Shown here: positions 25,830 to 61,405 of the stretch, one piece after another
How the letters are laid out: every line of letters begins with the position of its first letter
Numbering within the stretch: the first letter of the stretch is position 1
Origin: Elsinoe ampelina
Taxonomy: Eukaryota
Reading direction: 5' to 3'
DNA: 64,000 nucleotides
Assembly: GCA_010093995.1 (NCBI GenBank)
Contig: ML992510.1
Span: 1,027,132-1,091,131, forward strand
Translations under genes and position numbers: made by a program
The notes under the pieces: model-generated
Seen by the model: only the letters and a program-made list of their open reading frames with translations
Told to the model about the DNA's origin: nothing
Databases searched by the model: none

Positions 25830-26709
25830 GTAAAGAGTAGACTCCTTATCTAGAGAAATATATTTTAATAAAGCGCTATACTTACGCTACTATTACAAGT
25901 ATTAACCTAAACTCTATACTCTATTATACTCTATATAAGGCCTTATTATAGGTATAGCGCTAGAGATACGTACCTAGCTTATATATACTTACTNNNNNNN
26001 NNNGGCTATAAGCTACTTACTAGCTATAATATAGTTAATTTTAGTAGTAGAACTACTAGAGTTATATACTATCTAAACCTATTAGCTATATTTATAACAT
26101 ATAAGAAGCATAGTTTAACTTACCTCCTTACTAATAGTAATTAAGCTATAAAGGCTATACCTAATCTTCTATAGCTTCTTAACCTTCTTATACTTAAGCG
26201 TAATACTACTAAGCGAGCTATCTACGGGTCCTATATAAGGAGTTAAGACCTCGCTAATAACTTTATTCTTATTAGTGTAGTATACCTTAAGTATAGTCTT
26301 AAACTTCTTAACCTTAGGGACGTTCTTATAGGCTATAGTATATATATACTTCTTAGCTATAGTAATACTAGCCTAGCTAGGGGCCTTAAGCTTAGTAACT
26401 ACGTTAAAGGCGTTAATATATATATTACGTAGGATAGATAGAAGCGGCTCGTATATATACTTACTATAGATATAGTATTTATACTTATAATAGAAGAAGA
26501 TACTAAAGTTACCTCTAGTATAGACACGACCTACTACGAATTAGTTATATCTCTTATAAGAGCTCTATTAGCTTACTCTTAGCAATACTATTAGTGTACC
26601 TAGTATAAGTATTAGTCTTCTCTTTAGGAAGTAAGAGAGTTATAGAGTTAGCGCTAGTAGTAATAGCTCTCTAGACGCTAGCTAACCTTATACTATAAGT
26701 GTTAGCTAT
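25830..26709 (-). pseudogene. Antisense spliced accessory gene of B1, Zn2Cys6-like
   Basis: Introns 26534-26576 and 26073-26123. Same layout as in B2. The 3' end is uncertain and spans a small gap. Confidence 0.65.
25994..26003. other. Assembly gap (10 N; about 60 bp missing relative to B2)
   Basis: N run. B2 has about 61 bp between the same flanks. Confidence 0.95.
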
Positions 26710-43000: not shown

Positions 43001-43859
43001 TAAGGCTATAGTAGTTAACGTAGAGATAGAGTCCTCTACCTAGCTTACGAATAAAGAGAATAGGTAAGGAATAGCTAGTAGAACTCGGTGTAATAAAGCC
43101 TTTATTAAGATATTCTTAGATAAATTGTTCTACTATATTAAGTTTTTCTAGTAATAGACAGTATAAAGGCTCTATATATAGTAGCTTAGTACTATCTTTA
43201 AGTATAATATAGTTGTTAAAATTTAGCCGATACTAAGGAAGTATATTAGATTATTCTTTAGAGAAGATATTAGTAAACTTCTATAGCTCCTTTAGGAGAA
43301 CTACTATAGGATCTAGTTCTAGCTTAGAGACTATCTAGTAGTAGTCTTCGATATTCTTTACTAAGATTATAAATACCTTATTCTTTTAGTATTTAGCTAC
43401 TAATATAAAGGTAGCTATACTAATAAAGGTAATAGTTAGCTCTTCTTATTTAGCATTACTTACGTAGGTAAGTAAGTAGAAGAACTTATACATTAACTAA
43501 GTACTATAGGAGATTAGCTTAAACTCTCTCTAATTTAGCTTAAAGTTTAACCTAAGAGCTAGTAGCTAATATAGTCTAGTTCGTCCTAACTTAGTAGCTA
43601 AGCTAGAACTTAGTTTATAAGTTAGACTAGAACTAAACTAATTCTAAACTAAAAGAGTAGCTTTGCTAAGCTAGATTCCTAGATCTAAGCTAGGCTTAGA
43701 TCTAGATCCTAGTCTTTTAATTAGCTATAGTAGCTTCTACTTAATAATAACTAGTAAAAACTCTTCTTTATATATAACTTAGCTATACTTATAGTCGGTA
43801 GTAGCTCTATTAGCTTTAAGCTAGCTAAGGCTAAGAATAATGTTAAAATAGCTAATATC
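40090..43859 (-). pseudogene. pol of C2 (RT, RNase H, integrase, chromodomain)
   Basis: IYLD(N)ILIY near 42700-42730 on the minus strand, ILFIRK-type motif near 43050, chromodomain ~40130-40290. Confidence 0.9.
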
Positions 43860-44062
43860 TATTAAGAATATAGCTCTCTCTAGATAATTAAGCTATAAAG
43901 TTATATAACCTTAAGTTATGTAATGCTAAGGCCTAGGGATTTATAGCTGTTCTTTCTTCTAGTAGATAGACTTCTTTTAATTAATTAACTCGTCTATTAC
44001 CTAACTAGTGTACGATTAGTTCTATATAATATTCTATCCCTAAACATGCCTTCTACTTAACA

Positions 44063-44074: not shown

Positions 44075-45989
44075 GGAGCTATAGCATAAGTATAGAATTA
44101 TATATACTATAGTTAAGTATCTACGTTATTAAAATTAGGCCGGATTCTATTAGTATTCTCCTTCGTTTCTCCTTTATTATCTTAATCCTAGACAGATTAG
44201 TAGAGGTAGTATAAAGCGTAAAAGACTAGTTACTTAGTACATTAAGTAGAACGTATTAAGACGTCTACTATAGATTTATTTCTATAATTGTATAATAGCT
44301 ACTATTTATTAGCTATAAATAACTAAACAATATTTATTTTATTACTGTTTTCTCTCTCGAGATTAAGTACCTATTAATCTTATTAATAATTATCTAGTTA
44401 AGACTAGTATAGAGATCTTAACACCTAGAAGAATTAACTTAAAGGTAATTAACCTCCAGATCCCAACCTTTATCTATTTATTTATAAAGTTCTTTTCTAC
44501 TCTAGAACTTATCTTTAGCTATAGAAGACAATAATACCTAATTAAGGCAGCTAGTACCTATACTCTCTAAAGATAACTATAAGAAGTAGTTCTAATAAAT
44601 AGAGCTCTAGCTTATATTAAAGAAGGTATTATAGACTCTTACTTCCCTTACTAAACTATTAGTAATAACTCTAGGGTTATTATTAACTTCCTTATTTAAC
44701 TCCTAGTATTCTCCTCTATCGGTAGAGGAGAATAGTACTACCCTTTACTAGATCTATAGATATATCTCTAAGAGAGATTAAGAGATAATTTAGGAATAGT
44801 AGTAGGCTAAACTAGCTTAAGAGAAGCTAAAGAGTAAGTATATAAAGTAGATAGATACATAGGTAAGATAACTTTAGAAAGAGTTTATAATATACACTAT
44901 AAGTAATAATATAACTATCTTAGATGCCTAGTTATACCTAACTATATTAGGAAGGAGAATTAATAGATCTTTAGAGATTAAGTAATACTTCTTACTAATA
45001 ATAAGAATTTAGAGACTACTTAGTACTCTTTTAGCTTTATAGTTAACTATAAGAGATGCCTTAGATGCTTAACTATACCTTAGTATAGATAAGATCTATA
45101 ACATTCTTAAAGAAAAGAAAGTATAGAAGGGAGAAGAGAAATCTATTATATTTATAAGAGATAGACTATAACAGGAAACTAGTAGGAGTTTAAACTATAT
45201 ATATATCTTATATAAGAAACCTAGACACTCTATATTAAGGTATCCTTATCTCTAATAAGCTAAGAAGCATATCTAGCTATTCTATAGAGTTACTAAAAGA
45301 AGTAGCTCTATAAGGAGGTAGTTACCTAAGCGCTAGGAACTACTTAAACTTATAAGGTAGCTTACTAAGAGAATAGACTTCCTTAAAGTAGCTAAATTAA
45401 GAAGGAGAGGTAAAGCCTATCTAGCTACTAAGAGTAGTTTATTACGAACTAGTAGGACAGCTAGAATATAGAGACGTTAGGACTAATTAAGCTACTAAGA
45501 TTATTACGTAACCTAGCCTAACATTTACTTAGTTCTCTATCTTCTCTAGTAGCTCTACCCCTAAAACTATAAAGTATATAGGTTACTAGTAGACGTATAC
45601 TCTATATTACTTTTAACTCTTACTACGAAGCATATAGAGTATATAGAGAACGTAATAGAAAATATATATATATAGGAATAGTCCTTACCTTATGTAAGTA
45701 CTATAGTTAACCTCGTCTAGATAGCGAACACTAGTATTACTAAGGCTAGCCTTTATAATACTATCTAATTGTACTTTATTATTTATAAGACATACCTTCT
45801 CTAACTCTTACCTTAGTGCTATACTACTATAGAAGTAGAACTACCTCATTCCTAGCTTAGCTTAGACTACTAGTGTAGGCTATATTTAGACGGTTCGTAA
45901 CATTTTAACTACTCTTACTATAGTATAGCACGCTATAAGGTTAATAAGTAACTCTCGCTCTAAGTTACTATTAGTATCTTCGATCGCTA

Positions 45990-48900
45990 GTAAGCTAGGA
46001 AAGCTTACTATTAACGACATATCTACTACTAGTTTAACCTCGGGTAAATATAGAAGGTCTTTTAGTATAGAAGGACGGAGTAGGCCTAAGTTAGAGGTAG
46101 AACTCTTCTACGGGGACCGCGCCTACTTAAGGCGCTTTCTTGTTTAACTTAAAGCCTTCTTTGCTCTAGAGAGAGATAAGTATAGTAACGACGTAGTAAA
46201 GGTCCTCTATACCGGGATATACCTTAAGGGCGCTACCTTTAGGTAGTTTAAGCCTTATATAAGTAGCTACCTAGATAGATAACTAGGCCTAGATATAAAG
46301 GCTATCTTTAAGAGCTTTAGTATCTTCTAGGCAAAGATTAAGTAAGTCTTTAACGTATCTAACGAGAAACACGTCGCTATAATAAAGATCTAACAATTAT
46401 AACAATATAGGTCTATAGCCTAGTACTATTCCTAGTTCTAACAACTTATAATATACCTAGACTAGGACAATAGTGCTAAACACTTAGTATTCTATTAAGG
46501 ACTAAGCGACTCGGTTAAAGACTAAATAATACCTAAGCTGCCCGATAGCCTTTAGGAACTAGTAGATACTATAATTGCTATTAATAATAGACTTTATAAA
46601 CGACATATAGAACGTTATAGAGGATATAAGGTAAATACTAGATATATACGTTCCTCTCGAAACTATAGAGACTCTATAGAACTTAATACTATATATAAAG
46701 GCTACCCCTTATAGGTATAAGGCTATAGTTATAGAGGAAAGTTCCTTAGTAGAAAAGAGAGAGAGAAGTATAAATAAGATAATCTATATTTTAAGTGTAA
46801 AAGACCTAAGCATCGGGCTAGAGACTACCGATAAGAGGCGCTAGCTAATAGATTATATATAATAGTTGCCGGGCTAGTAGAAAAAAAGGCTAATACTACT
46901 ATAGAAGACCTAACGACCTTTAGCGTAGATAAGGAAATATAGAAGAGATCTACGACGACTTAAGAGGTAATAGAATTCTCTCCGGATGTTATACTTAATA
47001 TCTCTATAACTAATAGCGAATAACAAAGCTAAAACATAACGCTATTATAGATAGTATATTATAATAACTCTTATTATATTTACTTATTAGACAAGTAAGA
47101 ATCTAGTTAGTTCCTATATAAGCTATCTAAGCGTAGGTAACTAATAAAATAGCTAGACTAGGGGCTTAACCTAGAAAGGCTCTCTATAATTAGTAGTAAC
47201 ATTAACTAACCTTAGAAGGTAGTTAGCGACAATTACTAATATACGATTATTAAGATAAAGTATTAGGACGTAAGTGCTACGCGATAATATAGTAGCCTTA
47301 CCTTTAGCTCTTATAGTAAACTATAAGGAAAGGCATATTATATGTTACTCTAGAAATATATAAATCTAAATTATAAATAGTACTATACTATCTACTTATA
47401 CGATATGCTTAGAGAAGACGCTATTAGTCTTAAATATACTATAGACTTCTCGGTAATCGAGATAGATAGTACTATTCCCTATAGCTAAGTAAAAGAATAT
47501 ACTTAGTATAGCTTTACTAACTATAACTATACTAGGGGTAGTAGCGATAAAGAGAAATATAACAAAGAATATACTAAATAACTACGATGTAATAATATAG
47601 ATAAGAACTTATTTAACAATAATAATAACAATATACTACTATCGGGTAAACAACTTAAAGTATACCTTATAGAGATATAGAGAAATTATATAATAATATA
47701 TACCTACTACTAGAATAGAACGCAATAAGACAAATCTATATAACTTATTTTTGTCTTTAATACTAATACCTAGCTATACCTAGAAGAAATAGTTATACCT
47801 ATACGAGTATATAACACTACTTAGTACAACTAGTAGAGAATTATTAAACTTTATAGTTACTAAGGGACTTAGGCGCTAGAAGTTTACTTTACTATATTAA
47901 ATAGCAACAAAACACAACTTACCTAATAGATATAGTACTAATAGTAGATACGTATAGAAAGGAATTAGCTACTTATCTAAGGAGCTATAATAACAAAAAA
48001 CTAGCTAGTTATTGCCTAATAAGGTAAGACAATAACACTAGCTAAAGCCTTAATATAATAAAGATCTATATATTAAACTACTTTATACTAGAAGTTAAAA
48101 TATAAGAAAGTAAAGTAAGAGCAATAATAGATTTAGGAGCTAACTATAGCTACGTCTCTATAACAGTTACTAATTAGCTTAAACCTTATTAATACTAGAA
48201 GGAGTTACCTTATCTACTTACTATAGTAGATAGAACCCCTATAGAGAAGAACGGGAAAGTTACTTAGGAACTACGAAACGTTATAATCTAAATCGAAACA
48301 TACACGGAAAAACAATTAATTAATATAGTTAATATATAGTATAATATAGTACTTAGTATAGACTAGCTTTAATAACATAATCTAGACGTAGACTAGATTA
48401 AAAGAACACTCGAATTCCCTAAGTGTAATTATAGAATATAGAGAGTATAATTAGCTCTGTAGATACTAACTATAAGGATAGTATAGATATAACTAATAGT
48501 TAGAGCTATTACTAGTATAAGCGATTAAGTACTTCTACTAGAATATAAAGACTTTAAGGACTTATTTAAAGAAAGAGAAGGTATTATAGCCTTACTCTAA
48601 TATAAACTATAGAATTACGAAATACCTTTTAAAGAAGATAAATCCCTAATACACTATTAAGGTCTTATACTACTATCGAAACAAGAGAAGAATATTCTTA
48701 AGAACTACATCGATAAGTACTTACTTAAAGGATTTATATAACTATTAAAATTACCTATTACGTACGAAGTACTTTTTATACTAAAAAAGAATAGAACGTT
48801 ATAAATATACATTAATTACTAGAAACTTAATACACTTACTAGGAAGAATTACTATCCCCTACTAAGGATTAATAAACTTTAAGACTAACTACTTAGAGCT

Positions 48901-50840
48901 AAATAGTTTACTATAATTAATATTAGAGATGCCTATTATTAAGTATAAATAAAAGAGAGTAAGGAGTAGAAGATAGCTTTTAGAACGTAATAGAGTCTAT
49001 ATAAGTACCTCGTTATACTCTTTAGGTTAACTAACGCTCCTATAACCTTCTAAGAGTTAATTAATAACACTCTATAAGAATACCTTAACAATTTTATCTT
49101 AGCATATTTAGATAATATTATTATCTTCTTAAAGATGTATAATAAACACATAGGACATATTTATAAAGTACTATAGAAACTAAAAGAAAAAGATCTACTA
49201 GTAAAACTCTCTAAGTGTAAGTTCTATAAATATAAGATACAATTTCTAGACTATGTTATATCTACTAATAGTATTAGACCTAATCCGAAGAAGATTAAGT
49301 TAGTAAATAACTAGCCGGAACCTAGGACAGTTAAGAAGGTTTAAGCGCTACTAGAGTTCTTTAACTACTACTATAAGTTTATTAAAGAATTCTCTAAGGT
49401 AGCTATACTAATATCTAACCTTACGAAAAAGAAAACTAGCTTTATCTTCGACAAGAGATATAAGTAGGCCTTTAAGGAGCTAAAGCTTAGGCTTATAATA
49501 GTACCTATCCTAGCACTCTTCGACCTAGACTAATAAGCACTACTAGAAATAGATACTTTAGACTTTATAATAGAAGCGTATCTAGCATAGAAGAGCGTAG
49601 AAGAATAACGCTACCTAATTGTATACTACTTATAAAAAATAACCGGACCTAAACTTAACTACGATATATACGATAAGGAATTACTTATAATTATAAAAGT
49701 GTTCTACGAATAGAGAGTATACCTAGAAGAGATAACCTTACCTATATAAGTCTACACTAACTATAAGAACCTTCTATATTAAATAATAACTAAGGTTCTT
49801 AATAGATAATAGGTTTAATAGTTAGAAACACTTATAAGCTATAACTTCTAGATCTACTATGTTAAGGGATTAGAGAATAGTAGAGTAGACGCTCTTAGCT
49901 ACTAGCTAGATTACTTAAAAAATATAATAACAATAGAGGCCTCTATACTAAAGTAGTAGGATAACGCTCTAGTCTATAAGTACCTAAAGGTAGAGTAGTT
50001 ATATAGCCTTACCTAGGAGCTTACGTAAGAACGAAAGAAAGAAGTTATTTAAATATACTATAATAACCTAATAGCGGGACATAGTAGGATTAATAAGACT
50101 ATTAAACTTATTATATAAAACTACATCTAGAAAGGACTTTAAAACAATATTAAGACATATATCGCTACCTACGATATATGCTATAAGTCTAAGCACTCTT
50201 AACATAGACTATATAGCCTACTATAACTCTTACTACTACTAGATAAACTATAGCAATTAGTTACGATAGACTTTATAGGACCTCTACTACTATTAGAAGA
50301 ACCTCTTATAGGTATAAAGTATAATAGTATTCTAGTCCTAGTAGATAGGTTTACGAAGTATTACTACTTTGTCCTATATAAGACAATAGTAACTACCGAG
50401 GATATAGCCTTTATCTTTCTCTAAATAATTGTTTTATAATACGGAGTACTATAAGACCTAATAACCGATAGAGATAAGCTATTTACGTTATAATTCTAGT
50501 AATTATTTATAGATCTACTAGGAGTTAAATATAAACTATTAACCTTCTTTTACCTATAAATAAACAGATAAACTAAATAGGCAAATTAAGTACTAGAGTA
50601 GTACCTATAATACTACCTAAACTATAAGTAAGACTTATAGGTAACGCTATTACTACTTATAGAGCTCGCTATTAACAATAGAAAGTTAGCAAATAGAATT
50701 TTACTATTCTATATAAACTATAAGATATACCCGGATCTATACTACGACATACTTAGAATTAAGCTAGTATCTAAGGATACTAATATACTAGTAGCTAACA
50801 TTAAGAAACTATATAACTAGCTATACTATAATATAGTATT
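45990..50840 (+). pseudogene. gag-pol of F, 5' part (zinc knuckle ~46785-46830, protease ~48125, RT, RNase H, integrase)
   Basis: CFKC..GH.A.DC-like knuckle, AIID(L/S)GAN protease motif, YLD(N)IIIF at 49105. Continues at 56172-56700 with the chromodomain. Confidence 0.9.
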
Positions 50841-53800
50841 TATTAAGCGGAAGGCACGTTTAGGGGTAGAGTATTATATAGAACTAATCCGCACACTAGT
50901 TAGGTAATAGACGAGTTAATTAATTAAGAAGTCTATCTACCGAAAGAAAGAATAGCTATAAATCCCTAGGACTTAGCATTACATAACCTATAGTTATATA
51001 ACCTTCGGGCCTTAGTCTAATTATCTAGAGAGAGCTATATTCTTAACACTTCTACTTAGCTCCTATAGATAAGCTATTAGGTTAATAATAAGCTAAGTTA
51101 CTTTATAAACCTCGTAAAGTTCTAACCTTATAATAGCTTAGTTAACCTATTAGCTACTATGTCTACTGTCCTTATAAACTTAACCTATATCCTCTAGTCC
51201 CTCTATAGCCTCCTAACGTAGTAGTAAGCAACATTAATGTGTTTTGCCCTTTTATAAGTATATAGCTCCTTTATAAGTAAAAGAGCTACCTAGTTATTAC
51301 TATTAATCTTAGTAGTAAAGGGTAATCTTATTATTGCTTTCTAAGACTCCTTTATAGTTAGCTTCTAAGGTAATTAACTAACTATCTTATAACAGCCTAT
51401 GTCTCTTAGTAACTAAGATAGGAACTATAATCTCTTTATATAAGAGTATATTACTATATATTTAGCCTCTATAGTAGAGGTTAAAATAGACTTCTACTTC
51501 TTACTTATCTAGCTAATAGAACTACCTATAAGCATAAAGACGTATCTAAGAATAGAGACTCTATCTGTCTTGTCTAAGGCATAGTCTAAATCAGAATATC
51601 CCTTAAGAGTCTTATTACTATTCCTCCTAAATACTATACTAAGATCTTTAGTTAATCTAATATATCTTAATATCTTCTTTATCTTAATAGTATAGCTATC
51701 TATTAGATCTGCTATGAACTAACTAAGCCTTCCTAAGGCAAAGGCAGTATCTAGTCTTATTAGGGTACTAAGGTACATCTAGCTTCTAATAGTATATAAG
51801 TACTTAGTTCTGCTAAACCTTATATCTTTAGTCTAAGCTCTCTAAGGGAGCTTATTGTCTATTAGCTACTTTATTAGAGTAACCTTGTTAGAGGTTATAT
51901 TAAGCCTCTATAGCACATTATCTATATAGTAGGTCTAGTTAAGCCTTAAGGTTCCTTATTATCTATCCCTTATAACCTTAACTCTAAGAACTTTACTAAC
52001 CTTACTAAGATTCTTAATCTTAAAGATTCTACTAAGCTCTTGCTTAAACTACTAGATGTTCTCTTTACTTTGTGCTATAAATAGTATGTTATTAATATAA
52101 ACTAAAAGAATAATCTTCTTGTTATAGTATATAAGAAGATAGAGGTCTACTTTGCTCTAAGTAAAGCCTAGCTTTAAAAGCTTAGAGATGTAGTGCTAAT
52201 TCTAATCTCTAGTAGCTTACTTAAGTCTATATAAGCTCCTAAGAATACGAAAGGTAATGCTAGGTTAGACCTTAAGTCTAGGTAGTAGCCTTATATAAAT
52301 TACTTCTCTAAGGAATAATTCTATAAAGGCATTATTAATATCTACCTAATAACATTTAAGGTTAAGTATATATATAATAGCAAAGAACAGTCTTAGTGTA
52401 TCTACTCTAACTGTTAGTATAAATATGTCTTTATAGTTAATGCTATACTTCTATAAGAAGCCTCTAGTAACAAGTCTAGCCTTAAACTTCTTAATAGAGC
52501 TATCTATGTTATACTTAACGTTAAAGACCTACTTAGATGTTACTAAGTTTAATCCTTTTAGAGAAATAACCTCTTCCTATATGTTATTTAATTCTAAAGT
52601 ATTAAGCTCTATATTAATTGCTTTCTGCTACTTACTTCCCTAAACTAGATTAGTAATAGCCTTATAGTAGTCTCTTAGAATTAGGACATATTACTTAATA
52701 GAGGCTGTTATAGTAATCTTATTAACCTTATCTTACTAATTAATACACTTAGTAATAAATGCTCTATAATACTTTACCTTAGGCTCTTTATTATTAGATT
52801 CTTTATCTCTTAATCTCTTAAGTGATTAACCTACATAATTAGGTAATATAGATTAAACTATTAGCTCTTCTCTATATTAGAATTCTATAAGGTTAATAGG
52901 GTTAACCCTTAGAATCTCGATATATAAGAAGCTTCTCTCTATAGGCGCTTCTTACTAAATAGGCTAGTCTAATTAGTCCACCTTAGGATTAAGCTAGGCT
53001 CGGATCTAGGTTAGTCTACTAATTAGTCTCCTAACTAGTGCTTAATTGCTTGTAGTGCTAATCTTAATACTAAGATTAATATTCCTACCTTTCTTAAATT
53101 TAGAGAACTTAACATTTAGTAATACAATTACTGCCTTCCTATTAGGTACCTATATCTTATACATCCTATTAGTTCTATCTATATAGCTAAGGAATACTCC
53201 TACTCTTCCTCTGTCTATAAGCTTATCTTTTCTTCTATATATAGGAAAGGACTTTAGGTTTATATAGGTATATACCTTATAGCTCTAGACTCTAATGTAA
53301 TTAACTAATAGCTTAATGCCTATATAGGCCTTAATTAGTGTAACTTGCTTATTATTAATTATAGGTCTAGTTACTATTCTGTTTCTTAGATATATATCTA
53401 CCTAAACTGCTTTAGGCTAGAACTTATTTAGTATCTTTAAGTCCTTAAGCATTGCTCTTATGCTATTCTCTAAGGTTTAGATGCCTTTCTCTACTAGTCT
53501 ATTCTAGATTAAATTATATAGCTTAGTAGTTATATAATAGATGTCTTCTTAGCGCTCTTACTACTTTAGAATCTTATTAAGCTTACTAGCATTATCTAAT
53601 CTAGTAACTTTAACTTTAGTATTACTTTTCTTTTTAACCCTTAGCTTCTATTTAATAAGCCTTTATAGAGCTTTATCTCTTATCTTAAGTAGTATAATCT
53701 ATGTTATTCTTAAATAGCTATCTATAAGCTTAAGGAAGTATCTAAACCCTTTCTTACTTACTTTAATTAGGCTATAGATATTAGCATAGATAAGCTAAAG

Positions 53801-56171
53801 AACCTCTAGTCTTCTCTATGAGGTTTTGCCTCTTCTATTTCTTATTTTAGTAAGGGAATAGACCTTATATAGGATCGACAGATTATAGTTTAAGTTAATA
53901 AGCTTCTTAAGGGTTATAACCTTATAAAGATCCCTTAGCTTCTTAATTCTAAGGTAAGCAAATCTCCTATGCTAGAGTTAGTACTCTATCTTAGAGTTAT
54001 TAGATCTTAAATTAATAAGATCCTTATGTTACTTATCCTAGGTTAGATATACATACTTAGTATATAATATAATTACTAGCTAAGTAGTAAGGAATGCTAT
54101 GTCCTAATTAGCTAGATCTAGAATTAAGCCGGGCTTAGATCTAGAATACAGCTTTTAATTAGCTTACTACTTAAAGAGGGATTAGATAATATATACCCCC
54201 CCTCGAATCCTAGCTTTAAGTAGTAGCTACTTTTATAAATTAAGAATAAGAAAAGAATTTAAATTAAGAACTCTAGAAACTCCTAAATCTATATATAGCT
54301 TATAATAGAAGACTAAATTAATACTAAGATTAGGTATATAAAGAGCTTATATCTTTATCTTATCTCCCTTCTTAGTCCTAATAACTATAGTTCCTATTAA
54401 CTATAACTAAAGGTAACCCCCCCTAACCTAGATCTATCAAGTATATATCTTACTTAATAGGCCTCTAAAGAGAGTTAGCTTATCTATTATATAGTTAGAT
54501 ACTCTAGAGTTAAGTATCTACTAATAATATAGAAGCTTACCTTATACCTCTAATGTAGAGCCTATAGTCTTAAGTTCCTCTTTACCTAATAGAACTTTAG
54601 GTAGTAGAGTTAAGATTAGAGAGGAAGGTTTAGACCGGCCTTTAGTAGTAGTAAAGGCTTTACCTTTCTTTAACTTAGATACTGCTTCTAGTCTATTAAC
54701 CTTCTTAGTAAGATGCCTAACAAGGGTAATTAGATTATTAGAAGCTAATAGAGATCTTCTTCTCCTTAGTAGGCTCTTAGTAATCCTATAGGAAGGCTAA
54801 ATATGCCTCTATACTCTTTAAAGTTAAGGGCATCTAGTTATAGTATAACTAGCCTATAAGCAGAGGATATATATATAGCTTATACTTCTACTAAGTCCTT
54901 AATTTAGTCTCCCCCTAGCAAATATAGTAATCTTATACTTACTAAGGCGTCTCTCTTTCTCCTTAAGAATAAGAAGGACCTTATCTATGTTAGTTAATCC
55001 CCTTACTTTAATTACTTACCTTGTAAACCTATAGTCGTTAGGAAGAGAAGAGAGAAGCTACTATAATCTCTCTACTACTCTCTAATAACCCTTATCTAGG
55101 TAGATAATAGTAATCTATCTTCCTAGGCTAGTAAGGTAGGACTAAGCTTTATTAATAGTGTCTTGCTTATCTATCTTATAGTTTATAAATTAGATAACTA
55201 GCTCTCTTACACTTGCTTTAAGGTTTGTTTTATACTTAGACTTAAGTAATCTCTAATACTCTAATGTAAGCTCTTCCTTATATAGTAACTCTTTGTTATT
55301 TTATAAGATACACTAGACAACCTAGTACTTAGTAGTTATATTAGCCTTTTGCTAGTCCTTTAACTTAATAGGTAGGACTAAAAAGGAGCTAGAGGTATTA
55401 TCAGATAATAGTATTACTAAAGGGGTAGTCTAACTACGAATAGTCTAGAAGGCATTCTTACTTATAAGGTACATTTCTATCTAGTAGAACTATTCCCTCT
55501 AGTTAAGTCTATTAAGCTTAATAACTAGTCTTCTTAAAGATAAGGACTAATCTTCTATAGTTAGGAATTAAGTTCTCTAAGGAGAAGAGAATCAAATAAA
55601 TAGATAAAGGTTAAGTTTAGTTAATAACCTCTAGTTAATAGTTGTCTATAAGGCTAGCTAGGCCTTAGAGGAAGTTAGTAAATTAAATATGTTTAGTTAA
55701 TCTAGCTAATAAACAGCAGCTATAGTAGAACAATTATAGGAGTTAAACCTATGCTAAATAGAAGTACTATTCCTACTTATTGTCCTAAGTAGTACAATCT
55801 TTTACGACTTATAGTATAGTCTACTAGGCTTACTAAAGGTATCTAGATAGTTAACTATAAGGCGGTAGAGATATTATAATTCCGCTTCTATTTTATTTAA
55901 GTAGTAGGCTAACTACTATATATATAATTCTATACTTATACTATAAGCTCTAGGCTTATAACCTATTAAGCAAAAGGCACGTTTAGGGGTAAAGTATTAT
56001 ATAGAACTAATCCGTACACTAGTTAGGTAATAGACGAGTTAATTAATTAAGGAGTCTATCTACCGAAAGAAAGAATAGCTATAAATCCCTAGGACTTAGC
56101 ATTATATAACCTATAGTTATATAACCTTCGGGCCTTAGTCTAATTATCTAGAGAGAGCTATATTCTTAATA
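50841..56171 (-). mobile_element. Full-length Ty1/Copia element G, 5331 bp, same lineage as D
   Basis: 208-bp LTRs at 50841-51048 and 55964-56171. Perfect TSD GTATT. GYSD.DYA RNase H motif near 51580-51603. Reverse-complement similarity to D. Confidence 0.95.
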
Positions 56172-56700
56172 GTATTTATATTATAAAGAATAGTAGAGTT
56201 TACTAACTAGAAGAGAATTACAAGACTAATTCTATAGGAGAGAGAGAAAGTTTATCTCCTTAGTAAAAACATTAAAACGAAACAACCGAGTAAGAAACTT
56301 AATTATACTAAACTAGAACTCTTTAAGATCCTAGAAAAGAAAAACAAGAACGTATATAAACTAGAACTACTAAGACATATAAGGATTTATCTAGTCTTTT
56401 ATATATTACTACTAGAGAAAGCACTATAGAATACTATACCTAGACCTATCGAACTAGAGGAAGAAACATAGGAGCTATAGTATAAGATAGAAAGAGTTTT
56501 ACATTATAAACTTATAAAAGAAAAACGCTACTATCTTATTTACTAGAAGAGACATTAGTATAGTAAAGTAATATAGGAACTAGAGGAGCACCTTACCTCG
56601 TAAGCAATTCTAGATTACTAGATTAAGAACCTATCCTAAGTAAACCGACTAGACGGACCTAGTACTCGAAATACTAAATAAAAATAAGAACGCCTAAGGA
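56172..56700 (+). pseudogene. End of F pol (integrase C-terminus and chromodomain)
   Basis: IYLVFYILLLEK (RIP-mutated IHPVFHVSLLE) and YYLIY*K..*EL.EHL motifs. Confidence 0.85.
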
Positions 56701-56707
56701 AGATTAC

Positions 56708-57256
56708 TTAACTAATAGAAGTACCTTAATCGTTGCTAAGTAAGGAACTCTAATTAGAGTCGGGCATAAATAACTACTAGTCCTATAGTAGGACAGGATC
56801 TACTAATAATAGTATTTCCTTCTACTCTAAGACTTAAATACAAGTCTCTTCTAGAGAGATTACTTTCTCTACCTTATCCTCTAACTTTTATATCTCTTTA
56901 TATAGGCAAAGCTTATTACCTATAGCTCTTTAATAAGCCTCTTTTGCCTTTTTATAAGCTTCTTTAGCTTCTCTTCTAGTAGCCTTAGCTATAACTAATT
57001 CCTTTTATAAACGAATATACTTAGACTAAAGACGCTACTATTTCGATTTTGTTACCTAAATATTATAACCTAAGTAGTTACTTACGATATACTAGCTATA
57101 GATACTTAACTAAATATAGACCTTATAGTCTAGCCCCTTCGATTTGCAACAAGAATAAGCCTATAGTATATTAGTTCTAAATAGTTTAATAAACTCCGAG
57201 AGATTCTTTCGTATAGATATACTAGATTCGCTATACCTTTAATAACTAGGAGATAT
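56708..57256 (-). pseudogene. Antisense accessory gene of F, ~180 codons: canonical Zn2Cys6 spacing followed by a coiled coil
   Basis: Cx2C-x6-C-x8-Cx2C-x7-C at 57065-57157 (second Cys still TGC, the others TAT), followed by an E/K/A/R-rich helical stretch. No intron is needed. Confidence 0.75.
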
Positions 57257-57913
57257 ATTTAGTATATAGCGTATAAGGATAAGGAAGAATATTTACTTAT
57301 TAGAATAACTTAATTAAAGAAGAAGAGTAATATTATAAACTAGTAGGACAGCTAGAATATAAGGACGTTAGGACTAATTAAGCTACTAAGATTATTACGT
57401 AACCTAGCCCGACATTTACCTAGTTCTCTATCTTCTCTAGTAGCTCTACCTCTAAAACTATAAAGTACGTAGGTTACTAGCGGACGTATACTCTATATTA
57501 CCTTCGACTCTCGCTACGAAGTATATAAAGCACATAGAGAACGCAATAGAGAACATATATATATAGAAATAGTCCTTACCTTATATAAGTACTATAGTTA
57601 ACCTCGTCTAGATAGCGAACACTAGTATTACTAAGGCTAGCCTTTATAATACTATCTAATTGTACTTTATTATCTATAAGATATACCTTCTCCGACTCTT
57701 ACCTTAGTGCTATACTACTATAGAAGTAGAACTACCTCGTTCCTAGCTTAGCTTAGACTACTAGTGTAGGCTATGTTTAGACAGTTCGTAACATAGTTTA
57801 TTATTAATATCTCTATCTCTACTACTAGAAGTTCTATCTAGGGATAAAGAGCTTAAAACTATAGGTTCTATATTAGAGGTTTAAGGTAAGCTTCTATATT
57901 ATTAGTAGATACT

Positions 57914-58373
57914 NNNNNNNNNNNNNNNNNNNNNNNNNNNNNNNNNNNNNNNNNNNNNNNNNNNNNNNNNNNNNNNNNNNNNNNNNNNNNNNNNNNNNNN
58001 NNNNNNNNNNNNNNNNNNNNNNNNNNNNNNNNNNNNNNNNNNNNNNNNNNNNNNNNNNNNNNNNNNNNNNNNNNNNNNNNNNNNNNNNNNNNNNNNNNNN
58101 NNNNNNNNNNNNNNNNNNNNNNNNNNNNNNNNNNNNNNNNNNNNNNNNNNNNNNNNNNNNNNNNNNNNNNNNNNNNNNNNNNNNNNNNNNNNNNNNNNNN
58201 NNNNNNNNNNNNNNNNNNNNNNNNNNNNNNNNNNNNNNNNNNNNNNNNNNNNNNNNNNNNNNNNNNNNNNNNNNNNNNNNNNNNNNNNNNNNNNNNNNNN
58301 NNNNNNNNNNNNNNNNNNNNNNNNNNNNNNNNNNNNNNNNNNNNNNNNNNNNNNNNNNNNNNNNNNNNNNNNN
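57914..58373. other. Assembly gap (460 N)
   Basis: N run inside Copia-D. Confidence 1.
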
Positions 58374-61170: not shown

Positions 61171-61405
61171 CTAATAGCTTATCTATAGGAGCTAAGTAGG
61201 AGTATTAAGAATATAGCTCTCTCTAGATAATTAGGCTATAAAGTTATATAACCTTAAGTTATATAATGCTAAGGCCTAGAGATTTATAGCTGTTCTTTCT
61301 TCTAGTAGATAGACTTCTTTTAATTAATTAACTCGTCTATTACCTAACTAGTGTACGATTAGTTCTATATAATATTCTACCCCTAAACGTGCCTTCCGCT
61401 TAATA

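What the first reader, a model, noticed from the sequence alone, without database searches (positions are those of the whole stretch)
56708..57256. Element F: intronless antisense ORF with exact GAL4 cysteine spacing and a coiled coil
The frame reads A-Y-S-C-C-K-S-K-G-L-D-Y-K-V-Y-I-*-L-S-I-Y-S-*-Y-I-V-S-N-Y-L-G-Y-N, inferred as ACSRCKSKGLDCKVHIRSGICGQC..SGCD. One TGC survives. It is followed by VTKS(E)(W).RL.S...RL.KEL and an AKEAYKKAKEA helix, which matches the cluster-linker-dimerisation layout of Zn2Cys6 factors. The ORF ends tail-to-tail with the end of pol.
Basis: partly seen in the sequence, partly recalled or inferred. Interest (0 to 1): 0.75.

Follow-up and report, generated by a model that had tools for sequence, protein, structure and literature searches.

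The report
Retrotransposon's antisense zinc-cluster gene, mutated relic
This stretch is a mutation-riddled dead copy of a small extra gene that a family of fungal Gypsy retrotransposons carries backwards between pol and the right-hand repeat, and whose intact relatives encode a protein that looks like a miniature GAL4-type zinc-cluster DNA-binding factor with a long pairing helix.

Summary
The reading is in the sequence as written (minus strand, 57256 to 56708). The Tyr pattern alone is not rare: the relaxed [CY] spacing occurs 21 times in the window. Homology settles it. The stop-masked translation finds 8 proteins of 175-211 aa in 1.84 billion (best E 5.6e-13). They carry six Cys exactly where the window has Tyr or Cys. 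At 43 of 46 conserved family columns the window codon is identical or one RIP-type transition away (random codons: 7.6 +/- 2.5).

The family has over 100 members. Its named members are Dothideomycetes, all called 'hypothetical'. It evolves under purifying selection (median dN/dS 0.34). In 31 of 34 metagenome loci with flank it sits tail-to-tail with a Ty3/Gypsy chromodomain pol.

The six-Cys module does not reach Pfam Zn_clus (0 of 41 at threshold). Its predicted fold nevertheless picks out almost only solved Zn2Cys6 DNA-binding domains, at weak scores. An 80-residue helix follows and is predicted to self-pair.

The window copy has 21 stops and is dead. Antisense genes in fungal Gypsy elements are in print (brtn in Boty); I found no zinc-cluster one. 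Verdict: real feature, reader essentially right, a new variant of a known kind.

The parts
45430..45903 (+). 5' LTR of the Ty3/Gypsy element that carries the finding
   Evidence: 92% identical to 57323-57795 by blastn. Every visible difference in the alignment is a transition.
45904..50876 (+). gag-pol of the Gypsy element up to the Copia insertion. RT about 48850-49255, RNase H about 49456-49834, integrase zinc domain about 50032-50197.
   Evidence: Pfam on the stop-masked frame: RVT_1 1.4e-12, RT_RNaseH_2 3.9e-12, Integrase_H2C2 2.4e-6. blastx gives 47% identity over 949 aa to the L004 pol.
50877..56170 (-). Nested Ty1/Copia element inserted in the Gypsy integrase. Its roughly 170-nt LTRs are 50877-51046 and 56000-56170.
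   Evidence: The two 170-nt ends are 98% identical. RVT_2 scores 1.7e-24 on the minus strand. The two Gypsy pol pieces abut at L004 pol residues 1011/1010.
56171..56707 (+). C-terminal end of Gypsy pol: integrase SH3 (56244-56423), then a chromodomain-like stretch
   Evidence: SH3_Tf2-1 2.4e-6. blastx to L004 pol residues 1010-1151, 44% identity. Translation shown.
56708..57256 (-). RIP-inactivated antisense accessory gene of 183 codons, with ATA at 57254-57256 where relatives have ATG. The wider 205-codon read 56708-57322 contains 21 stops.
   Evidence: In run X1 most other copies read C at 57254 and G at 57253, which gives Met-Pro, the family's N-terminus.
57176..57223 (-). N-terminal conserved motif (family SSTxRRxxLxxFIxxFG; window SSISIRKNLSEFIKLFR), predicted helix
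   Evidence: Alignments. Helix 17-31 in the P0002 model and helix 3-17 in the domain model.
57065..57157 (-). Six-Cys module with one invariant His. Five Cys codons now read TAT, one is still TGC (57146-57148), and the His codon now reads TAT (57116-57118).
   Evidence: One search lists each codon and its place. Fold searches are.
56810..57055 (-). Region matching the long helix or coiled coil of intact relatives (includes REAKEAYKKAKEAY)
   Evidence: Helix 75-156 of P0002 at pLDDT 94-98. Homodimer prediction: score 0.49, best control 0.00. Alignment.
56745..56775 (-). Remnant of the C-terminal motif (family LxLSPxTWxA; window LFMPDSN*SS)
   Evidence: the L column is at 56773 and the W column reads TAG at 56752.
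57317..57328 (+). Polypurine tract AAAGAAGAAGAG next to the 3' LTR
   Evidence: Read directly. Its function is inferred.
57323..57796 (+). 3' LTR. Read antisense, it lies directly upstream of the accessory gene.
57395..57402 (.). TTACGTAA, the RIP-type derivative of the palindrome TCACGTGA that relatives carry upstream of the gene
   Evidence: 22 of 41 loci have TCACGTG 135-231 nt upstream of the ATG. The window motif lies 146 nt upstream. The same motif is in the 5' LTR.

Best explanation
Shown: the stretch is a dead copy, wrecked by RIP-type C>T/G>A mutation, of a third gene of a Ty3/Gypsy chromodomain retrotransposon. The gene is intronless and has about 183 codons. It lies on the opposite strand between the end of pol and the 3' LTR. 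It is conserved and under purifying selection in intact relatives.

Predicted for intact relatives (about 190 aa):
- a basic N-terminal helix;
- a six-Cys, one-His module whose model resembles the Zn2Cys6 binuclear-cluster DNA-binding domains of GAL4, LAC9 and Pho7;
- a short linker;
- an 80-residue helix that pairs with itself;
- a disordered acidic tail with a conserved Trp/Phe motif.

Inferred mechanism: the gene is transcribed inward from the 3' LTR, as HBZ of HTLV-1 is and as brtn of Boty may be. Its product enters the nucleus, binds DNA through the zinc module as a dimer, and regulates the element itself, either LTR transcription or cDNA/integration handling.

My odds:
- real element-borne gene relic: 0.97;
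- zinc-binding module with the Zn2Cys6 fold: about 0.65;
- sequence-specific DNA-binding regulator of the element: about 0.45.

In this window it does nothing.
For: Homology:
- phmmer of the stop-masked frame found 8 hits at E<=1e-3 in 1.84e9 proteins. The best is 5.6e-13, and the hits cover query residues 29-177.
- All six Cys columns and the invariant His align to Tyr or Cys codons in the window.
- 22 of 46 conserved columns are identical, 21 are reachable by reverting RIP-type changes, and 3 are not. The control gives 7.6 +/- 2.5.

RIP:
- TpA/ApT is 1.8-2.0 and (CpA+TpG)/(ApC+GpT) is 0.13-0.19.
- Differences among the many copies in run X1 comprise 165 transitions and 7 transversions.

Family:
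- Profile searches found 41 and then 69 proteins, all unnamed or 'hypothetical', with no precomputed Pfam domain.
- Named members come from Bathelium, Elasticomyces, Friedmanniomyces, Aulographum and Sporormia.

Context:
- The metagenome scan returned 61 loci.
- Of the 34 with flank, 31 have pol tail-to-tail downstream.
- I sent 24 adjacent ORFs from 18 loci to Pfam. All 24 are Gypsy pol (PR-RT-RH-INT-SH3-Chromo) or gag.
- L006 and L007 keep only a gag remnant.

Selection: NG86 on 29 distinct intact ORFs gave 62 usable pairs of 406. Median dN/dS is 0.34, range 0.03-0.54, none above 1.

Fold:
- The AF2 models have pLDDT 80.9 and 83.4, with a short helix starting at each CxxC pair.
- Foldseek with the domain model: 23 of 27 listed hits are Zn2Cys6 DNA-binding domains, best E 0.21.

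Self-pairing:
- Score 0.49, best of 3 controls 0.00.
- The mark was reached by 21 of 30 proteins solved as pairs of one chain and by 0 of 23 solved as single chains.
- On eukaryotes it was reached by 17 of 29 pairs, but by only 1 of the 7 with no older solved relative, and by 0 of 30 single chains.
- The runs agree in at least 64% of their contacts, and the partner's pLDDT is at least 67.
- The model supports binding; it does not show it.
Against: - Pfam Zn_clus is not reached by any of 41 members. The best E is 0.097, and 7 of 41 score E<=1.
- The window translation gives no Pfam family at E<=10.
- A family profile against PDB sequences finds LEU3 only at E 1.8.
- The models are predictions without metal, and the network may simply recall the Cys pattern.
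- The invariant His, the 8-residue C3-C4 loop and the residues between C2 and C3 differ from classical clusters. The recalled PS00463 pattern fits 5 of 41.
- The predicted pairing is antiparallel, with contact pairs summing to about 211-218. That would put the two zinc modules at opposite ends, unlike GAL4.
- No paired CGG sites are enriched in 9 LTR intervals.
- Transcription, nuclear location, zinc binding and DNA binding are all untested.
Confidence: 0.8

Rival explanations
1. The element-borne gene is real, but its Cys/His module is not a DNA-binding Zn2Cys6 cluster. It would be another small zinc module, for example cross-braced CxxC / CxxH / CxxC / C. It would mediate protein or RNA contacts, for instance with Gag, integrase, the chromodomain or the element's RNA. 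The long helix would act as a scaffold.
For: - An invariant His sits three residues after the third Cys.
- Pfam Zn_clus is below threshold in all 41 members.
- The recalled PS00463 pattern fits 5 of 41.
- The predicted dimer is antiparallel.
- No CGG pairs are enriched in the LTRs.
Against: - The spacing 2-6-8-2-6/7/8 fits the general Zn2Cys6 consensus in 38 of 41 members.
- Each CxxC pair begins a short helix, as in those domains.
Confidence: 0.3
2. The family is simply the already described antisense gene brtn of Boty-like Gypsy elements of Botrytis, seen here in another class of fungi. Nothing would then be new beyond a domain annotation.
For: - Same place and strand: between pol and the 3' LTR, antisense, in a fungal chromodomain Gypsy element.
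- This rests on the title of Zhao et al. 2011 and on passages that cite it in PMC8365987, PMC4227169 and PMC5987419.
Against: - No hit named BRTN, and no Botrytis or Monilinia protein, appeared among the 41 and 69 family hits. The collection searched includes NCBI nr, and every named hit is a Dothideomycete 'hypothetical protein'.
- This is weak evidence, because the searches depend on shared words.
- I could not see the brtn sequence or the paper itself.
Confidence: 0.2
3. The pattern arose by chance. Tyr-rich, stop-rich RIP-mutated non-coding DNA between pol and the LTR happens to imitate a cysteine motif.
For: - The relaxed pattern occurs 21 times in the window.
- Stop density in the frame is no lower than in the other frames.
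- The window translation has no Pfam hit.
Against: - phmmer E 5.6e-13 over 145 residues.
- 43 of 46 conserved columns are explained, against 7.6 expected.
- Relatives show the same gene order.
Confidence: 0.01
4. A fragment of a host transcription-factor gene lies next to the element, or was captured once. It would not be a regular gene of the element.
For: - Zn2Cys6 factors are abundant host genes in ascomycetes (general knowledge).
- One intact copy (L006/L007) sits among ordinary host genes without pol.
Against: - 31 of 34 loci with flank have pol tail-to-tail, across elements whose pol proteins are only about 30-50% identical to the window's.
- The L007 copy still has a gag remnant 640 nt downstream.
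- No longer host-like protein of 385-2000 aa matched the family profile, which is weak evidence.
Confidence: 0.02

Closest known systems
brtn, the additional antisense gene of Boty-like Ty3/Gypsy retrotransposons of Botrytis cinerea (Zhao et al. 2011, Virology 417:248). I saw only the reference and citing passages in PMC8365987, PMC4227169 and PMC5987419.
   Same: A fungal chromodomain Gypsy element with an extra gene on the opposite strand between pol and the 3' LTR.
   Different: Sequence relationship unknown. No BRTN-named protein appeared in the family searches. Nothing I saw says that brtn encodes a zinc cluster. The host is a Leotiomycete, whereas the named members here are Dothideomycetes.
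HBZ of HTLV-1, an antisense-encoded bZIP factor transcribed from the 3' LTR (recalled, no call)
   Same: A retroelement gene on the minus strand next to the 3' LTR. Its product has a DNA-binding-type region plus a coiled-coil pairing helix and a transactivation-like segment.
   Different: HBZ is a bZIP protein of a vertebrate retrovirus, not a zinc cluster of a fungal retrotransposon. There is no sequence relationship. Transcription from the LTR is shown for HBZ and only inferred here.
Zn2Cys6 binuclear-cluster DNA-binding domains (GAL4, LAC9, PPR1, PUT3, HAP1, LEU3, Pho7, Cep3; Pfam PF00172)
   Same: - Six Cys with spacing inside the family consensus.
- A short helix starting at each CxxC pair.
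- A cluster, short linker and long helix layout.
- Found only in fungi so far.
- These are the best structural matches.
   Different: - Below the Pfam threshold in 41 of 41 members.
- An invariant His and an 8-residue third loop.
- A different residue pattern between Cys2 and Cys3.
- A conserved helix before the cluster.
- The protein is only about 190 aa and has no middle homology region.
- The predicted pairing is antiparallel.
- It is encoded by a mobile element.
Antisense additional ORFs at the 3' end of plant Tat/Retand Gypsy elements (PMD plus coiled coil; passages of PMC4408406; abstract of PMC7264820)
   Same: [quoted passage not shown] The products include a coiled coil. Function unknown.
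   Different: These are plant, non-chromovirus lineages. Their domain is PMD or transposase 28, not a Cys cluster.

Membership tests
Zn2Cys6 binuclear cluster (Pfam PF00172, GAL4 type) | Six Cys spaced C-x2-C-x6-C-x5-12-C-x2-C-x6-8-C | tested here: met
   38 of 41 family proteins fit: spacing 2-6-8-2-6 in 23, 2-6-8-2-7 in 14 and 2-6-8-2-8 in 1. The window has Tyr or Cys codons at all six places with spacing 2-6-8-2-7.
Zn2Cys6 binuclear cluster (Pfam PF00172, GAL4 type) | Score at or above Pfam's gathering cut-off (21 bits) | tested here: not met
   0 of 41 members reach it. 7 of 41 score E<=1, and the best is 0.097. Among the first 8 homologues the scores were 9.7-12.1 bits in 3 of 8. The window translation gave none.
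Zn2Cys6 binuclear cluster (Pfam PF00172, GAL4 type) | PROSITE PS00463 signature, including the basic residues between Cys2 and Cys3 (pattern recalled from memory) | tested here: not met
   5 of 41 members fit the recalled pattern. The pattern came from memory, so this row carries less weight.
Zn2Cys6 binuclear cluster (Pfam PF00172, GAL4 type) | Fold: two short helices, each beginning at a CxxC pair, superposable on solved cluster domains | tested here: inconclusive
   - Predicted helices at 40-45 and 59-63 of P0002 and at 26-31 and 45-50 of the domain model.
- Foldseek best E 0.21; 23 of 27 hits are Zn2Cys6 domains.
- The models are predicted and contain no metal.
Zn2Cys6 binuclear cluster (Pfam PF00172, GAL4 type) | Two zinc ions bridged by six Cys; binding to CGG-type half-sites | not testable with these tools
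   Needs metal analysis and DNA-binding assays. A count of paired CGG sites in 9 LTR intervals showed no enrichment, which says little.
Zn2Cys6 binuclear cluster (Pfam PF00172, GAL4 type) | Parallel coiled-coil dimerisation element after a linker | tested here: inconclusive
   A long helix at 75-156, pLDDT 94-98. The homodimer prediction passes its mark (0.49 against 0.00) but is antiparallel.
Additional antisense gene of an LTR retrotransposon (brtn-like position) | Lies between pol and the 3' LTR on the opposite strand of a complete element | tested here: met
   Window. Relatives: 31 of 34 loci with flank.
Additional antisense gene of an LTR retrotransposon (brtn-like position) | Kept open and constrained across diverged elements | tested here: met
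   29 distinct intact ORFs of 173-213 aa. Median dN/dS is 0.34 over 62 usable pairs of 406, with none above 1.
Additional antisense gene of an LTR retrotransposon (brtn-like position) | Sequence homology to BRTN of Botrytis | not testable with these tools
   The paper and the sequence are not held. No BRTN-named hit appeared.
Additional antisense gene of an LTR retrotransposon (brtn-like position) | Antisense transcript starting in the 3' LTR | not tested
   No usable RNA data; see Tried and rejected.
Ty3/Gypsy chromovirus (host element) | PR-RT-RNase H-integrase order with a C-terminal chromodomain, flanked by LTRs | tested here: met
   Window: RVT_1, RT_RNaseH, Integrase_H2C2 and SH3_Tf2-1, LTR pair. 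Relatives: full domain sets including Chromo.
Repeat-induced point mutation (RIP) relic | Excess TpA, depleted CpA/TpG, and differences between copies that are C>T/G>A transitions | tested here: met
   TpA/ApT is 1.8-2.0 and (CpA+TpG)/(ApC+GpT) is 0.13-0.19. The LTR pair differs by transitions. Copies in run X1 differ by 165 transitions and 7 transversions.

The most novel reading that the evidence does not exclude
A lineage of Dothideomycete chromodomain retrotransposons encodes its own transcription-factor-like protein. This would be the first Zn2Cys6-type DNA-binding factor known to be carried by a mobile element. It would be expressed antisense from the 3' LTR like HBZ of HTLV-1. It would act as an antiparallel rod-shaped dimer with one zinc module at each end, able to bridge two DNA sites: the two LTR ends of the cDNA, or the element and a chromosomal target. 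In that way it would control the element's transcription or integration.
Probability: 0.3. Interest if true: 0.8.

Novelty: new variant of a known kind. Interest (0 to 1): 0.6.

Why it matters
Extra genes in LTR retrotransposons are rare and mostly unexplained. In fungi only brtn of Boty is in print, and nothing I could see gives it a domain assignment.

Here a whole family of over 100 proteins, all annotated 'hypothetical' or misnamed, gets three things:
- a place, as the third gene of a Gypsy lineage;
- evidence of constraint;
- a concrete, testable biochemical reading: a zinc-cluster-like DNA binder with a pairing helix.

If the reading holds, mobile elements in fungi would carry their own member of the kingdom's largest transcription-factor class. 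That bears on how such elements control themselves, and on how their insertions could rewire nearby host genes.

It also shows that RIP-mutated DNA can be read back reliably when Tyr, stop and Lys/Asn codons are treated as possible Cys/His, Gln/Trp/Arg and Glu/Asp codons.

The copy in this window is itself inert.

Tried and rejected
- **Whole genome:** not held, so other copies in this genome could be seen only through run X1.
- **Earlier findings:** none by place or by sequence.
- **Pfam on the window translation:** nothing at E<=10.
- **Stop density per frame:** does not separate coding from non-coding frames at this level of RIP.
- **First RIP-aware script:** it had an indexing error. It is replaced, and its numbers are void.
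- **PDB sequence search with the family profile:** only coiled-coil noise (Gfh1, E 0.017) and LEU3 at E 1.8.
- **Protein atlas on residues 1-75:** best score 0.89, unnamed Ascomycota clusters. This is a lead only.
- **Search for longer, fused forms (385-2000 aa):** none at E<=0.001. The tool calls this weak evidence.
- **Profile-profile test against true Zn2Cys6 domains:** A pattern scan of all 61 loci found no other cluster gene. The test was not done.
- **Paired CGG sites in 9 LTR intervals:** no enrichment over shuffles.
- **RNA:** no RNA holder is listed. Of the two runs guessed to be RNA, X6 laid nothing and X9 laid one contig on the LTR only. This says nothing about expression.
- **Organism B (run X3):** contigs cover the pol end and the LTR but not 56693-57330. 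No conclusion drawn.
- **Literature:**
  - 'antisense' + 'LTR retrotransposon' + 'Zn2Cys6' gave 0 papers.
  - 'Zn2Cys6' + 'Gypsy' + 'LTR' gave 22 genome papers. I opened one of the 12 listed, and its only mention was in the reference list.
  - 'antisense ORF' + 'retrotransposon' + 'fungi' gave 1 unrelated paper.
  - Zhao et al. 2011 is not held.
  - I did not open any paper's supplementary files, including those of PMC8365987, so a figure of brtn there could bear on the brtn question.
Full report
**1. The observation**

The window is AT-rich throughout (GC 0.21-0.34) and carries the marks of repeat-induced point mutation. TpA/ApT is 1.8-2.0 and (CpA+TpG)/(ApC+GpT) is 0.13-0.19.

One Cys codon, TGC at 57146-57148, survives.

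Taken alone, the pattern is weak evidence:
- Tyr makes up 9.4% of all six-frame codons.
- The relaxed [CY] version of the cluster spacing occurs 21 times in the window, against 2.3 +/- 1.6 in 100 Markov simulations. Most of these sit in Tyr-rich junk.
- The frame has 21 stops in 205 codons, no fewer than the other frames. The true pol frame is no better, at 0.08.
- The stop-masked translation (P0001) hits no Pfam family at E<=10.

**2. The surroundings**

The finding sits inside a Ty3/Gypsy element on the plus strand.
- LTRs at 45430-45903 and 57323-57796 are 92% identical, and the differences visible in the alignment are transitions.
- RT, RNase H and the integrase zinc domain lie at about 48850-50197.
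- A Copia element on the minus strand, with 170-nt LTRs 98% alike, is nested at 50877-56170.
- The two halves of Gypsy pol abut exactly across it, at residues 1011/1010 of the closest intact relative, L004.
- Pol resumes at 56171 with the integrase SH3 domain and a chromodomain-like end.

The 620 nt between the end of pol and the 3' LTR hold the finding. No second copy of this stretch exists in the window.

**3. Homology**

phmmer of P0001 against 1.84 billion representative proteins found 8 proteins at E<=0.001. The best scores 5.6e-13. All are 175-211 aa and cover query residues 29-177.

They read MPRACSxCxxxGxxCKVHVRSGRCGxC......C[DN][IV]RVTxSEWxRL. An Ala/Glu/Arg-rich stretch follows, then AEEAIAVEE, then a tail LALSPxTWSAxDGLxDxFW.

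In the alignment every one of the six Cys columns meets a Tyr or Cys codon of the window. The invariant His meets Tyr, Arg meets a stop, and Ser-Gly meets Leu-Ser.

I quantified this on 41 family proteins, using the 46 columns where at least 80% share a residue:
- the window codon encodes the same residue in 22 columns;
- in 21 it is a codon that arises from the family residue by C>T or G>A changes;
- in 3 it is neither.

Random codons from the neighbouring RIP-mutated DNA reach 7.6 +/- 2.5, with a maximum of 17 in 5000 draws. An earlier version of this script was mis-indexed and is void.

Contigs of a DNA run of the same organism label show many diverged copies of the stretch. 5324 contigs were laid, and the listed differences comprise 165 transitions and 7 transversions. 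Most other copies read C at 57254 and G at 57253. That turns the window's ATA-TCT into ATG-CCT, Met-Pro, which is the family's N-terminus.

**4. The family and where it lives**

Profile searches found 41 and then 69 proteins. None has a precomputed Pfam domain. All are unnamed, called 'hypothetical', or misnamed after their helix (AcrA, chromosome segregation ATPase, YdcH). Named members come from Bathelium, Elasticomyces, Friedmanniomyces, Aulographum and Sporormia, all Dothideomycetes.

A scan of metagenome contigs gave 61 loci. Of the 34 with useful flank:
- 20 have a long minus-strand ORF directly after, or overlapping, the 3' end of the gene.
- I sent 24 adjacent ORFs from 18 of these loci to Pfam. 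All 24 are Gypsy pol (protease, RT, RNase H, integrase, SH3, chromodomain) or gag.
- The two of these 20 loci not sent to Pfam (L014, L038) also carry pol there by blastx, as do 11 more loci whose pol is broken. That makes 31 of 34.
- L055 ends at the match.
- L006 and L007 are the same sequence. They have an intact gene amid host genes, with only a gag remnant 640 nt downstream, so pol has been deleted.

In some elements the gene overlaps the end of pol by up to 137 nt, tail to tail. In others it does not overlap.

Several contigs are circular permutations of one 6.9-7.3 kb unit. In these, only 250-570 nt separate the start of gag from the start of this gene. One LTR therefore lies between them. 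Any promoter for the gene must sit in the LTR read backwards, or in the 60-nt spacer.

**5. Selection**

On 29 distinct intact ORFs from the loci, pairwise Nei-Gojobori estimates gave 62 usable pairs of 406 (dS between 0.05 and 2). Median dN/dS is 0.34 and the range is 0.03-0.54. None exceeds 1, and the closest pairs are at 0.03-0.15. The gene is kept by selection in active elements.

**6. Is the Cys module a Zn2Cys6 cluster?**

Sequence tests are negative or marginal:
- The spacing is 2-6-8-2-6, -7 or -8 in 38 of 41 proteins. This lies inside the general consensus but is not GAL4's 2-6-6-2-6 (the GAL4 spacing is recalled).
- Pfam Zn_clus scores E<=1 in 7 of 41, with a best of 0.097. None reaches the 21-bit cut-off.
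- The recalled PROSITE pattern fits 5 of 41.
- A family profile against PDB sequences finds LEU3 only at E 1.8.

Structure prediction points the other way, but weakly:
- An AlphaFold2 model of P0002 with the 41-sequence alignment has pLDDT 80.9. It shows a helix at 17-31, two short helices that begin at the two CxxC pairs, and a single helix at 75-156 with pLDDT 94-98.
- A 70-residue domain model has pLDDT 83.4.
- Foldseek finds nothing at E<=0.001. Yet 23 of its 27 listed hits for the domain model are solved Zn2Cys6 DNA-binding domains (Pho7, Leu3, Gal4, Put3, Hap1, Lac9, Ppr1, Cep3), with a best E of 0.21. The full model gave the same picture.

I read this as follows. The module probably has the Zn2Cys6 fold (about 0.65), but it is a divergent branch. 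It has an invariant His, a longer third loop, different residues between Cys2 and Cys3, and a conserved helix in front. The models contain no metal and may lean on the Cys pattern.

**7. Pairing**

A controlled complex prediction of two copies of residues 33-160 scored 0.49, against 0.00 for the best of three controls.
- That mark was reached by 21 of 30 proteins solved as pairs of one chain and by 0 of 23 solved as single chains.
- On eukaryotes it was reached by 17 of 29 pairs, but by only 1 of the 7 with no older solved relative, and by 0 of 30 single chains.
- The runs agree in at least 64% of their contacts, and the partner's pLDDT is at least 67.

The model supports binding; it does not show it. 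The contact pairs sum to about 211-218, so the helices run antiparallel in the model. That would place the two zinc modules at opposite ends of a rod. This differs from GAL4-type factors.

**8. Mechanism**

Shown:
- a conserved, constrained, element-borne antisense gene;
- in this window, a dead copy of it.

Inferred:
- transcription inward from the 3' LTR;
- a nuclear, dimeric, zinc-dependent DNA binder that acts on the element itself;
- an acidic Trp/Phe tail that works as an activation or docking motif.

I looked for a target.
- Paired CGG sites are not enriched in 9 LTR intervals.
- The palindrome TCACGTG[AC] lies 135-231 nt upstream of the ATG in 22 of 41 loci with at least 200 nt upstream. 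The background is 0.25 CACGTG per kb.
- The window carries its RIP-type derivative TTACGTAA at 57395-57402 and in the 5' LTR.
- That palindrome is the classical site of bHLH factors (recalled). It may be a host-factor site and need not be this protein's.

**9. What is known**

An additional antisense gene, brtn, between pol and the 3' LTR of Boty-like Gypsy elements of Botrytis is in print (Zhao et al. 2011). I saw only the reference and citing passages. The paper itself is not held.

Plant Tat elements carry antisense ORFs with a PMD domain and a coiled coil (passages).

Searches combining antisense, LTR retrotransposon, Gypsy and Zn2Cys6 found no paper that describes a zinc-cluster gene in a retrotransposon.

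I could not test whether brtn is a distant relative. No BRTN-named protein appeared among the family hits.

**10. Verdict**

There are three corrections: the spacing is not exactly GAL4's, formal Pfam membership is not met, and the copy here is an inert relic.

The kind of thing, an extra antisense gene in an LTR retrotransposon, is known. A zinc-cluster-like, self-pairing version spread through Dothideomycete chromoviruses appears to be new.

Noticed in passing
window 57395-57402 and the matching place in the 5' LTR (about 45502-45509); loci L001-L046, upstream of the gene: The palindrome TCACGTG[AC] lies 135-231 nt upstream of the antisense gene's ATG, inside the LTR, in 22 of 41 loci with at least 200 nt upstream. 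The background is 0.25 CACGTG per kb. The window has the RIP-type derivative TTACGTAA 146 nt upstream. Whether a host bHLH factor or the element's own protein uses it is unknown.
   Followed up: partly
window 50877-56170: A Ty1/Copia element on the minus strand is nested in the Gypsy integrase. Its 170-nt LTRs are 98% alike, which is much closer than the Gypsy LTR pair (92%). Further copies of its LTR lie at 43854-44026 and 61203-61369, and a related Copia body at about 59.5-63 kb.
   Followed up: partly
L006 5087-5614 and L007 9965-10492: An intact 175-aa copy of the gene sits among ordinary host genes (MIF4G/MA3, methyltransferase, FAD-binding). No pol lies within 10 kb, and only a gag remnant is found 640 nt downstream. 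It may be a pol-deleted derivative or a step towards domestication.
   Followed up: partly
window 57914-58373 (also 1242-1981 and 25994-26003): Runs of N. The first begins 118 nt after the 3' LTR, so the element's right flank and target-site duplication cannot be read.
   Followed up: no
P0008; loci L041, L042, L049, L051, L053-L061: Copies of the gene in other assemblies are also RIP-like. They show Tyr for Cys, stops and GC of 0.33-0.46, next to broken pol. The gene is inactivated together with its element in several genomes.
   Followed up: partly
proteins P0039, P0040, P0051, P0069: Automatic names given by a source (AcrA membrane-fusion protein, chromosome segregation ATPase, YdcH/DUF465) are almost certainly coiled-coil artefacts on members of this fungal family.
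   Followed up: no
L019, L027, L030 (contig ends): Metagenome contigs of these elements end in exact 127-128-nt overlaps, giving a unit of 6.9-7.3 kb. This probably comes from the assembler collapsing the two LTRs, or from tandem or circular forms. It makes the contigs circular permutations of the element.
   Followed up: no
L005, L015, L018, L019 against L027, L033: The gene's 3' end overlaps the 3' end of pol on the other strand by 86-137 nt in some elements and not at all in others. The overlap is therefore not a fixed feature.
   Followed up: no
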